In this document: positions 49,401-52,400 of the stretch, piece after piece | Layout: every line of letters begins with the position of its first letter | Numbering within the stretch: the stretch's first letter is position 1 | From: Octopus vulgaris | Taxonomy: Eukaryota | DNA length: 64,000 bases | Direction: 5' to 3' | Assembly (NCBI GenBank): GCA_951406725.2 | Contig: OX597837.1 | Location: 15,810,001-15,874,000, forward strand | Position numbers and translations under genes: made by a program | The notes under the pieces: model-generated | The model's database searches: none | What the model saw: only the letters and a program-made list of their open reading frames with translations | What the model was told of the DNA's origin: nothing

Positions 49401-52400
49401 TGTGTGTGTTTGTGTTTGTCCCTCACCACTGCTTGACAACCAGTGTTGGTATGTTTACATCCCTGTAATTAAGCGGTTTGGCAAAAGAGACCAATAGAAT
49501 AAGTACAAGGCTTTTAAAAAAAAATGAGTAACAAGGTTGATTTGTTTAATTAAACATCTATGAGGCAGTGCTCCAACATGGCTGTAGTCTAACAAATGAA
49601 ACAAGTAAAAAAGAAAAGCTATATAAATATATAAAAATATATACTCACTTTTCATCCCATATAGTGAACCTCATATCCATGCTGTGTTGGCTGAGGAAAG
49701 TCTGGGAACCAAGTGGTACCTCAATATTAGAAGGATGCGGAATCGGTTCACCGAAAGCCACAAAGTAAGCAGCACCTGGCCTTGGCTTTCCGCTCTCGGC
49801 ACTGCTGTTATCAGAGCTGTTGCCACTGACGTGCCTGCTACGGTTTGCAGGTGTGGCACACGGGGACAATGTTTTAGCAGTGTCATCACTGGAGTCACCC
49901 GATTTAGCCTCGTCATCATTATCCTGTTTCTGCTTCAGGTTGTCACGGAAACGACACACATGATGACTTCCAGTATCCCCACCCTCGCCATCTGCATGTT
50001 CAGCCATCTTATTACTATCATCATCATTTTTATTATTATTATTATTCTCATTAGTTGGAGGATGTTGATGAAGCGGAAGCTTAAGGAGATGCGAAAGACT
50101 GTCGCCTGCAGCCTGGGCTTCACCTGTAAAGCTTCCATTCTCTGCTTCTTCTTTGATTGTTACAGGTGACGTTGCTAATGACGATGACTGTTGATGATGT
50201 AATGAAGATGAGGTGTGGTGAAGGTGTTGGTGGGGGCTGTGTTTGTTTGGATGATGTACATGATGAAGGGAACCGTTTCCATGGTGATCCTGATCGTAAC
50301 TTCCTCTTCCTCCTCTGCTGCTGTCACCTTTGTCAGCAACGAGTTTCTCCGCCTTTATCTCCTGTCCACTGTACTCCTCGTCATCATTTGCTTCGGACTT
50401 AAATTCCTTCTTCTCGATGACAACAACATCATCATCATCATCATCCTCACCATCACTATCATTGTCAGCATCAGTGCTGGCTGCTACATGCTTCGCTAGT
50501 TTCTTCTGGAGAGAGGCTTTGTCTAAAGGTGAAGAGGATGAACATGGTAAACACAAAGTGGATGATGATGTAGAGGAGGAGGATGATGATGCAGGAGACG
50601 TAGCTGATGAGGATTGGAAGATGTTGGTATCTCCAGTAGGGCACAAAAGTTGACCACTGAACTTGATGACCTGCAAAAACAAGCAACAAAAATGAGAGAA
50701 CAATAACATGTAGGTACAAAAGCATCCATACAGAAGTATGGATGCTTATGTCCAGACTCTCACAGATATTGCAGAGATAATTTGCAACAATTAAAGATAA
50801 TTCAATTTACAAAAGGGTTAGAATTAATTCTTATACTCAGGACAGAGAGAGGTTACTAAAGTTGCATGAAATTGCATGCCAAACGTAGTTAGAAACAAAG
50901 CATGATTTTTAGCGCATCTTCTGGTGCAATTGCATGAAATTTATTTGGCTTTTCAGTATCACAAGTACTGTATAAATATCACAGACAGACAGACAGACAT
51001 TTGTTGAATGAATAACTTTTAACAATTAATGATGATTCTCTTCACAGAAGAGTTAAATGTGATCTTTATGCCGCTCTTGGGACACAGAGTTTCATGTGGT
51101 TGCATTGTCGGATGTGCTCAGGAAGAGAATGAATTTTGGCTGCATCAACATTCATCAGAGACAAGACTAATCAACACACAACGGCCTAAGCAGCCTTTAA
51201 TCAAGACCACTTAAGTATGGCCCTTGACTATCCTGTGTCCTGTACAAATAAGATTTTCCTGTTAACTGCAATAAATTGCTTTTAATTCTACAATACACAA
51301 AATATTTTAACAATATTTTAATATAATTCCTAATAATATTTAATGACAAAAATATAATAGGATCTTTTAAACATCAAATGGTTGTGAGAGACCACCGAAG
51401 TAAAATAGAAATCTGAGAGGTCCAGAGGTAAGAAATGGTTGAGAACCACTAGTTTAGAATAAAGTCACCCTGCCCCCTCATACACACACCCAGAGTTCAT
51501 AATAGTCTTGCAAAAGCTGAATGGCAACCTCCTCACAAGGGCTGGTGGTGTGCAAAAAGAAAAAAAGCACCCACCAGGCAGACACTGGAGTGCTTGACAA
51601 ATAATCTGGACAAATCCCTTACCATGAAACTCTAAACCTTTGAGTATCTCCTGTAGTATTACTCTTCATTAATCAGGTGATGACACCAACGCCGCCGCCG
51701 CCGCCGCCGCCACCGCCACCGCCACCACCACCACTTTAACAGTTTTTAGTGATGTACATTCTGTTGCAAACATCTGGGATAGGTTCCTCATCTGAGAATA
51801 ACTCCCTCCAACAGCCCTAGAAACGCCCTTACAGCTTTGACTAAGCCATAAAAAAACCCCTTCCAATATGCAGTGCTGCAGAGTGGGGGAGGGATTGGTG
51901 TAAGGAAGAGGAGTAGTGACACACACACACACACAATGGCAGCAGCAAAAACTACAAAGGGACCCTACCTTATATGATGCAGATTTCAGGTTGATGTTGC
52001 GCCCCTTTGCTGTCAATGTAGACTTCACACGAAGTGAGAACACTTGCCGCGGGGAAGGCCAAGTGTCAACTCCAGCTGTACGATGGGCCCGGGATGGACC
52101 CAGCTCACTTCGTAGTTGTTCGTGGTCACATGGGTGAATGTACTCGTAGATATTTTGTCCAAGAAGGTCAATCTGTGAAGCATAAAGGTCAGATTTAGAA
52201 AGTCATTGAGATATATCGAGAGAGAACTAGATACTGTATACACACCCACACACATAAGCGTAGTTGTCACGAACTCTCATAAAACGTGGAATCGTATTAC
52301 ATTGAAAGCAAACTTCTGAACCACACAGCTATGTATACATTCAAATATATAGGTATACGTACTATATATATATCTATATCTATATATATATATATATATA

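What the first reader, a model, noticed from the sequence alone, without database searches (positions are those of the whole stretch)
49774..50640. ~290-aa insertion within PAS-A carrying a SIM, three SUMO consensus sites and a His-rich tract
Seen: 289 aa separate [10 protein letters not shown] from [14 protein letters not shown]; the equivalent human loop between the last two PAS-A strands is about 16 aa. The insert has [12 protein letters not shown] (acid-flanked SIM pattern, 50448-50413), FKSE, IKAE and IKEE (psi-K-x-E) and [24 protein letters not shown]. Inference: a SUMO-regulated and possibly metal- or pH-sensitive module grafted onto the dimerisation domain.
Basis: partly seen in the sequence, partly recalled or inferred. 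Interest (0 to 1): 0.7.

Follow-up and report, generated by a model that had tools for sequence, protein, structure and literature searches.

The report
Giant PAS-A loop in octopus HIF-alpha
The octopus oxygen-sensing gene HIF-alpha has a real, spliced-in 289-residue stretch inside its partner-binding domain, where other animals have a short loop; it is one of several greatly lengthened, predicted-floppy parts of this protein and likely carries SUMO tags rather than forming a new module.

Summary
This is the best-matching HIF-alpha locus of an octopus genome (13 exons, 2,172+ aa). 289 aa separate the last two PAS-A strands, against 16 in mouse HIF-1a. The insert lies inside one exon, and spliced contigs read through it, so it is not an intron. 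Two other octopod orthologues have it; the sister-lineage HIF-alpha (756 aa) and three paralogues in the same genome do not. It is one of three linkers that each grew about ninefold. It is as conserved as the other long linkers (81% vs 80-87% identity; domains 98-100%) and is modelled as disordered between confident strands. Of the motifs, FKSE and IKxE are kept in 3 of 3 octopods, IKEE in 2 of 3, and the strict SIM pattern in 2 of 3; the His tract varies. psi-K-x-E also occurs in this loop in oyster, horseshoe crab and several insects at similar density, so the sites look like an old loop feature scaled up, not a graft. Verdict: a lineage-specific disordered expansion, likely SUMO-modified as ARNT and BMAL1 are. 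A SIM or metal/pH module is unsupported. New variant; interest 0.35.

The parts
49774..50640 (-). 289-aa expansion of the PAS-A H-I loop (model aa 253-541), predicted disordered
   Evidence: AlphaFold model of the O. bimaculoides orthologue
49649..50670 (-). Exon of 1,022 nt: H strand, insert, I strand, linker, start of PAS-B. Same borders as the 63-67-aa exon of the paralogues and of the sister lineage
50473..50529 (-). Conserved block [19 protein letters not shown]; short helix predicted at low confidence
   Evidence: 18 of 19 invariant in 3 octopods; helix at model 162-173, pLDDT about 57
50413..50445 (-). Acid tract plus VVVI (SIM-like); the acid tract is a GAT repeat
   Evidence: kept in O. 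bimaculoides, DLVV in P0049; chance level
50392..50403 (-). FKSE: psi-K-x-E followed by acidic residues (NDSM-like)
   Evidence: invariant in 3 of 3 octopods
50347..50358 (-). IKAE: psi-K-x-E; IKTE in both orthologues
   Evidence: consensus kept in 3 of 3 with only x changed
50215..50286 (-). His-rich tract
   Evidence: 11 His in 24; 8 and 9 in the best 24-aa windows of the orthologues; 13 of 24 invariant
50146..50157 (-). IKEE: psi-K-x-E; lost in P0049, which has a different site (FKCE) a few residues on
50053..50100 (-). Conserved block [16 protein letters not shown] containing an LxxLL pattern (motif label recalled)
   Evidence: 15 of 16 invariant
49795..49866 (-). Conserved Ser/Thr-rich block with SP, TP and RxRxxS patterns (kinase labels recalled)
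   Evidence: 22 of 24 invariant
53662..53849 (-). bHLH exon (first coding exon not located in the window)
   Evidence: PF23171; spliced
52622..52956 (-). Exon: expanded bHLH-PAS-A linker and start of PAS-A
51969..52172 (-). PAS-A exon
48510..48616 (-). PAS-B exon
47358..47505 (-). PAS-B exon
   Evidence: PF08447
45065..47013 (-). 650-aa exon: second large expansion (562 vs 63 aa between PAS-B end and LNTEKIF)
43856..43939 (-). Exon with LTFRAP (43919-43902), the only prolyl-hydroxylation-like motif found
43364..43488 (-). Exon 9 of the model
40925..41022 (-). Exon 10 of the model
   Evidence: loose end
39095..39816 (-). Exon 11, 241 aa, low complexity (inferred from frame, GT-AG and 85% identity to P0055)
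38475..38587 (-). Exon 12 with conserved SVLRNLL (inferred likewise)
36027..37451 (-). Last exon: third large expansion (466 vs 48 aa) and C-terminal transactivation domain
   Evidence: PF08778

Best explanation
The 289 aa are a translated-frame, octopod-specific expansion of the variable H-I loop of HIF-alpha PAS-A, predicted to hang as a disordered loop off an otherwise normal domain and likely to be SUMO-modified at FKSE and IKxE. Shown: coding frame, splicing, position between strands H and I, presence in three octopods, absence in the sister lineage and in paralogues, and parallel growth of the other linkers. Inferred: growth in place by short indels and repeat slippage inside an old exon; tolerance because PAS-A loops lie away from the dimer interface; Ubc9 acting on the two acid-flanked sites and tuning HIF-alpha turnover or activity, as reported for ARNT K245 and BMAL1 K259. 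The SIM-like patch and the His tract are most likely by-products of composition.
For: Splicing: one contig each in X1 (5,764 nt) and X16 (5,729 nt) covers the whole exon, joined to the upstream exon in both and to the downstream exon in X1. Orthologues: P0055 (O. bimaculoides, 2,318 aa) and P0049 carry the insert. The H-to-I segment is 307, 325 and 307 aa in octopods against 22-71 aa in 98 of 98 other distinct segments. The sister clade P0001/P0052/P0054 (100/100 support) has 32 aa. SIM-, Trh/NPAS- and AHR-like paralogues in G000 keep this exon at 63-67 aa (paralogue names are my reading). Linkers vs P0001: 309/34, 562/63, 466/48, 101/46, 103/35, 344/237, while PAS spacings are unchanged. Identity to O. 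bimaculoides: insert 81%, other long linkers 80-87%, domains 98-100%. Model: strands at 110-121 and 432-439 with pLDDT about 88-90, and most of 131-415 below 50; best fold matches are HIF-2a/1a:ARNT structures. Three length changes in the X21 contig are -39, +9 and -39 nt, and a fourth is +18, all in frame. psi-K-x-E occurs in this loop in 11 of 55 other mostly invertebrate segments (2.4 expected; about 8 lineages), at 0.85 per 100 aa over 45 HIF-alphas against 1.0 here. PAS-A FG/GH/HI loops are unresolved in crystals and far from the dimer interface (PMC4905635, passages).
Against: No SUMOylation data. psi-K-x-E is generally about fourfold enriched in HIF tails, so the excess is only P=0.02-0.04. 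None of 29 vertebrate-like and 14 short dipteran-like loops has a site, nor does the sister lineage, so continuity from an ancestral loop site is not shown. The two-site block is only marginally more conserved than the insert (19 of 22, P=0.05, picked after looking). Three other blocks are better conserved (P=0.007-0.02 uncorrected; best-window permutation P=0.05-0.22), so the functional part may lie elsewhere. Only three close sequences were available. The model is of the O. bimaculoides orthologue without ARNT, pTM 0.47, and H-I strand pairing was not inspected. Contigs drop rare variants, so a minor skipping isoform is not excluded.
Confidence: 0.55

Rival explanations
1. Tolerated filler: the loop grew by slippage along with the other linkers and none of its motifs matters.
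For: Identity equals that of the other linkers. It contains poly-Ser, GAT and AAT repeats and many indels. No window is significantly conserved after permutation (P=0.05-0.22). SIM pattern is at chance level.
Against: Three psi-K-x-E sites in each of three species, including one loss and one gain in P0049, against 1 site in about 1,490 aa of tail. Blocks of 18/19, 15/16 and 22/24 invariance sit between indel-rich stretches.
Confidence: 0.2
2. One reading: a dedicated SUMO-site plus SIM module, with a His sensor, in which the SUMOylated loop binds its own or a partner's SIM and gates dimerisation with ARNT.
For: The SIM-like patch lies 4 aa before FKSE and is acid-flanked; it is kept in O. bimaculoides, and P0049 keeps three hydrophobics there. 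The sister lineage has a similar acid/IKEE/VVVL cluster after PAS-B.
Against: Strict SIM core is lost in 1 of 3 (VVVI to DLVV) and has chance frequency 7-19%. The His tract is 13 of 24 invariant, below the insert's 68% average over ungapped columns. No donor sequence was found.
Confidence: 0.12
3. The loop is a docking and phosphorylation platform whose working parts are the helix, the LxxLL block and the SP/TP/RxRxxS block rather than the SUMO sites.
For: These are the best-conserved blocks (18/19, 15/16, 22/24) and the only helix predicted in the insert.
Against: Blocks were picked after looking; permutation P=0.05-0.22. Motif labels are recalled, short and common. The two flanking blocks may be conserved simply for lying near the strands.
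Confidence: 0.1
4. The insert is an intron or is usually spliced out.
For: In 3 of 4 runs the contig breaks inside the insert, and only 15 of 32 joints were listed.
Against: The breaks fall at the GAT and AAT repeats that the tool skips. X1 and X16 span the exon in one spliced contig. No joint removing the insert is listed (2 of 2 joints shown, both short and in frame). The frame is open in three species.
Confidence: 0.03

Closest known systems
HIF-alpha (HIF-1a/HIF-2a; Drosophila Sima) bHLH-PAS class I
   Same: bHLH_HIF1A, PAS-A, PAS-B and HIF CTAD in order; best sequence and fold matches are HIF-1a/2a; same exon borders around the loop.
   Different: About 2,180 aa against roughly 700-850 in the molluscan and vertebrate hits; H-I segment 307 against 22-71 aa. 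Long fly Sima proteins (to 2,015 aa) keep a 22-aa segment. One non-canonical LTFRAP motif, and no psi-K-x-E within 45 aa of it (present in 25 of 42 others).
SUMOylation of ARNT K245 and BMAL1 K259
   Same: SUMO sites in the PAS region of bHLH-PAS factors (PMC7693722 and PMC13042505, passages). ARNT 228-259 is an unresolved PAS-A FG loop (PMC4905635, passage), which places K245 in a loop by my inference.
   Different: Those are class II partners with single, tested sites in shorter loops. Here the sites are in the class I subunit, in the H-I loop, multiple and untested. The loop position of BMAL1 K259 is recalled, not checked.
SUMOylation of mammalian HIF-1a K391/K477 and HIF-2a K394
   Same: SUMO control of HIF-alpha stability and activity (PMC7693722, passages).
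   Different: Those sites lie after PAS-B; the octopus protein has three of its four strict consensus sites inside PAS-A.
Octopus bimaculoides XP_014772617.1 (LOC106870896, 'uncharacterized protein')
   Same: Direct orthologue, 2,318 aa, same insert and motifs.
   Different: Annotated only as uncharacterized; 18 aa longer in the loop.

Membership tests
HIF-alpha | HIF-type bHLH | tested here: met
   PF23171, E 3e-17
HIF-alpha | Tandem PAS-A and PAS-B | tested here: met
HIF-alpha | C-terminal transactivation domain | tested here: met
   PF08778, E 8e-13
HIF-alpha | LxxLAP prolyl-hydroxylation motif | tested here: inconclusive
   Only LTFRAP (LxxRAP) found, at the position of other species' first motif; no second motif
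HIF-alpha | Groups with molluscan HIF-alpha; best locus in the genome | tested here: met
   tree of 25 HIF rows; G000 search with P0001, run with a stricter first look
HIF-alpha | Dimerises with ARNT and is oxygen-regulated | not testable with these tools
SUMO acceptor site (psi-K-x-E, NDSM) | Consensus in a disordered region, acidic residues downstream | tested here: met
   three sites; FKSE followed by NDDEE; definition from PMC7693722
SUMO acceptor site (psi-K-x-E, NDSM) | Conserved in orthologues | tested here: inconclusive
   two sites 3 of 3, one site 2 of 3; block P=0.05
SUMO acceptor site (psi-K-x-E, NDSM) | Lysine is conjugated | not testable with these tools
   needs assay
SUMO-interacting motif | Four-residue hydrophobic core with acidic flank (pattern recalled) | tested here: met
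   [10 protein letters not shown] in the window and P0055; chance 7-19%
SUMO-interacting motif | Core conserved across orthologues | tested here: not met
   DLVV in P0049; no acid-flanked strict SIM in its insert
SUMO-interacting motif | Binds SUMO | not tested
   no SUMO sequence recovered from G000
Inserted (grafted) domain or module | Own fold or a homologue/donor elsewhere | tested here: not met
   low pLDDT; only 2 of the 150 listed hits cover the insert, both octopod HIF-alpha; no genomic copy beyond simple repeats
His-rich metal/pH sensor | Conserved His spacing | tested here: not met
   13 of 24 invariant, with indels in both orthologues

The most novel reading that the evidence does not exclude
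Octopods moved SUMO control of HIF-alpha from the region after PAS-B onto a hypertrophied PAS-A loop. The sister lineage has an acid/IKEE/VVVL cluster after PAS-B and LKDE near the hydroxylation motif; octopods lack both and carry three sites plus a SIM-like patch in the loop, part of which resembles that cluster (local score P=0.003-0.009 for the window, 0.02-0.09 for the orthologues, found after looking) and may be a copy of it. With only one non-canonical hydroxylation motif, the loop would be an oxygen-independent control hub sitting on the dimerisation domain.
Probability: 0.12. Interest if true: 0.7.

Novelty: new variant of a known kind. Interest (0 to 1): 0.35.

Why it matters
It is by far the longest PAS-A H-I loop among the HIF-alphas sampled (307-325 against at most 71 aa) and shows how much a dimerisation domain can carry in this loop. 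The octopus HIF-alpha is three times the size of its closest unexpanded relative and is filed as 'uncharacterized', which matters for anyone studying cephalopod hypoxia responses. If the sites are used, the H-I loop would be an overlooked SUMO hotspot in invertebrate HIF-alpha generally, testable in oyster or locust proteins with one or two sites. If not, it is an extreme but ordinary disordered expansion.

Tried and rejected
Intron or alternative splicing: rejected. No RNA holder is listed on record (RNA is a guess for X1-X14); I rely on contigs joining exons at GT-AG ends. Transposon or duplicated genomic donor: only GAT and AAT repeat matches (150 of 175 rows shown). Genome-wide bHLH-PAS expansion: not seen in 3 of 3 paralogues whose exon was recovered, out of 6 loci fetched. 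First homologue search missed the octopus protein because it exceeds 2,000 aa. SUMO-peptide complex prediction was not run: the PF11976 search returned polyubiquitin-like and other ubiquitin-like frames, no SUMO. A complex with ARNT was not run: no whole ARNT sequence, and it is a textbook pair. LDKAS in the insert repeats five residues of the bHLH helix, but alignment of the insert to the rest of its own protein is not above shuffles (P about 0.7-0.8). First coding exon not found. Two scripts stopped at the tree step after printing their counts; the tree came. One search used 30 of 47 proteins (loops 1.15 per 100 aa, tails 0.20); one search used 45 of 54 (8 unmatched by pattern, 1 without tail) and gave a smaller contrast (0.85 vs 0.26; observed/expected 5.4 vs 4.2). 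Literature: searches listed no title or abstract describing the octopus HIF-alpha structure or this loop; PMC5470732 has no occurrence of 'octopus'. Listings were read, not full texts; subscription journals and supplements were not seen. Earlier-findings look-ups gave nothing bearing on this.

Full report
Gene. The finding lies in a minus-strand gene with a HIF-type bHLH, two PAS domains and a HIF C-terminal transactivation domain. Thirteen exons with GT-AG ends give one open frame of 2,172 aa; the first coding exon was not located. Exons 1-9 of the model are covered by spliced contigs, exon 10 by a loose end; exons 11-13 rest on frame, splice sites and identity to the orthologue. The locus is the best match to HIF-alpha in G000. 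The orthologue P0055 is named by its source as O. bimaculoides LOC106870896, with domains 98-100% identical, so the window is from an octopus (inference).

Observation. The 289 aa and all named motifs are present at the stated places. The same anchors enclose 16 aa in HIF-1a chain 4zpr_B. Among 100 distinct H-to-I segments recovered by pattern from the session's hits, 98 non-octopod ones are 22-71 aa and the two octopod ones are 307 and 325 aa; the window's is 307.

Not an intron. In 4 of 4 runs from four studies the exon is joined to its upstream neighbour, and record coordinates run on into the downstream exon. X1 covers the whole exon in one contig; the other three break at the GAT or AAT repeat. 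X16, another organism label, also covers it in one spliced contig with two synonymous differences. X21, a more distant organism whose differences match P0049, has about the first 150 aa of the insert spliced in, with length changes of -39, +9, -39 and +18 nt. The tool only guesses that these runs are RNA, and contigs lose rare isoforms.

Who has it. P0055 and P0049 carry the insert. P0001 and its cluster, sister to the octopus pair with 100/100 support (probably another cephalopod, unnamed), have a 32-aa segment and 756 aa in all. Three paralogues in the same genome keep the same exon at 63-67 aa. The growth is thus specific to octopod HIF-alpha and happened inside an old exon. No donor was found in proteins or in the genome.

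Context changes the reading. Every linker of this protein is longer than in P0001, three of them about ninefold (309/34, 562/63, 466/48), while PAS spacings are the same. The insert is 81% identical to O. bimaculoides, like the other long linkers (80-87%). AlphaFold on the orthologue's PAS-A to PAS-B part (570 aa, 43 rows) gives confident strands on both sides and low confidence across the insert, with one weak helix; the model matches HIF:ARNT structures best. Published passages state that PAS-A FG, GH and HI loops are unresolved in crystals and distant from the dimer interface (PMC4905635).

Motifs. Three psi-K-x-E sites are rare in shuffles (P=0.00025-0.0016), but HIF disordered regions are enriched about 4-5-fold anyway, which leaves P=0.02-0.04. 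FKSE is invariant, IKAE is IKTE in both orthologues, and IKEE is lost in P0049, which has FKCE nearby, so each species has three. The same loop holds such a site in 11 of 55 other, mostly invertebrate segments (2.4 expected; near-duplicates reduce this to about 8 lineages, among them oysters, horseshoe crab, locust, planthopper, stick insect, beetle and sawfly), but in 0 of 29 vertebrate-like and 0 of 14 short loops and not in the sister lineage (classes by crude pattern). Density is 0.85 per 100 aa in 45 other loops and 1.0 here; at that density three sites are unremarkable (P=0.46). The SIM pattern is at chance level and becomes DLVV in P0049. The His tract is real but variable.

Mechanism. 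Most likely the loop is a disordered appendage on a normal PAS-A that still pairs with ARNT (inferred), and its two acid-flanked lysines are SUMO acceptors that adjust turnover or activity (inferred by analogy). ARNT K245 in the PAS domain, BMAL1 K259 and HIF-1a K391/K477 are reported SUMO sites (PMC7693722; PMC13042505; passages). Rivals are neutral filler (0.2), a dedicated SUMO/SIM/His module (0.12), a docking and phosphorylation platform (0.1) and an intron (0.03).

Boldest reading. The sister lineage has an acid/IKEE/VVVL cluster after PAS-B and LKDE near its hydroxylation motif; the octopus tail has one strict site in about 1,490 aa and none near LTFRAP. Part of the insert aligns weakly to that cluster. 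SUMO control may have moved into the loop, perhaps by local copying. Against this, 17 of 42 other HIF-alphas also lack a site near the motif, and the alignment was noticed after the fact in biased sequence. Probability 0.12.

Novelty. Seven literature searches listed nothing on this loop, within the limits of the library. The protein is a member of a known family with an extreme variant loop. Interest 0.35.

Noticed in passing
window 43902-43919 (-); P0001 434-439: Octopus and sister-lineage HIF-alpha have LTFRAP / LTNRAP in place of LxxLAP and no second hydroxylation-type motif by pattern search, whereas oyster has both LTHLAP and MDMRAP. Oxygen sensing may rest on one non-canonical site.
   Followed up: partly
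window 45065-47013 and 36027-37451 (-): Two further roughly ninefold expansions in the same protein (562 vs 63 aa; 466 vs 48 aa), larger than the finding's.
   Followed up: partly
window 36560-37090 (-): The last exon holds three look-alike stretches ([25 protein letters not shown], each followed by GQ) that suggest internal repeats.
   Followed up: no
window 42652-43056 (+): Intronic DDE_3 transposase fragment, E 3e-08.
   Followed up: partly
window 44638-45000 (-): Intronic frame with a weak helix-turn-helix match (E 0.003, below cut-off) that reads like a mariner-type transposase piece (recalled).
   Followed up: partly
window 50509-50523 (-): LDKAS in the insert repeats five residues of the protein's own bHLH (LDKASIMRL); not above chance in self-alignment.
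   Followed up: yes
P0039, P0134, P0002, P0118, P0103, P0176, P0189, P0203, P0119: Short H-I loops of several invertebrate HIF-alphas carry psi-K-x-E sites, a possible untested SUMO hotspot.
   Followed up: partly
G000:C3:117301610-117304102: Eleven tandem ubiquitin-like units at 228-nt spacing in a 902-aa frame, consistent with a polyubiquitin gene.
   Followed up: no
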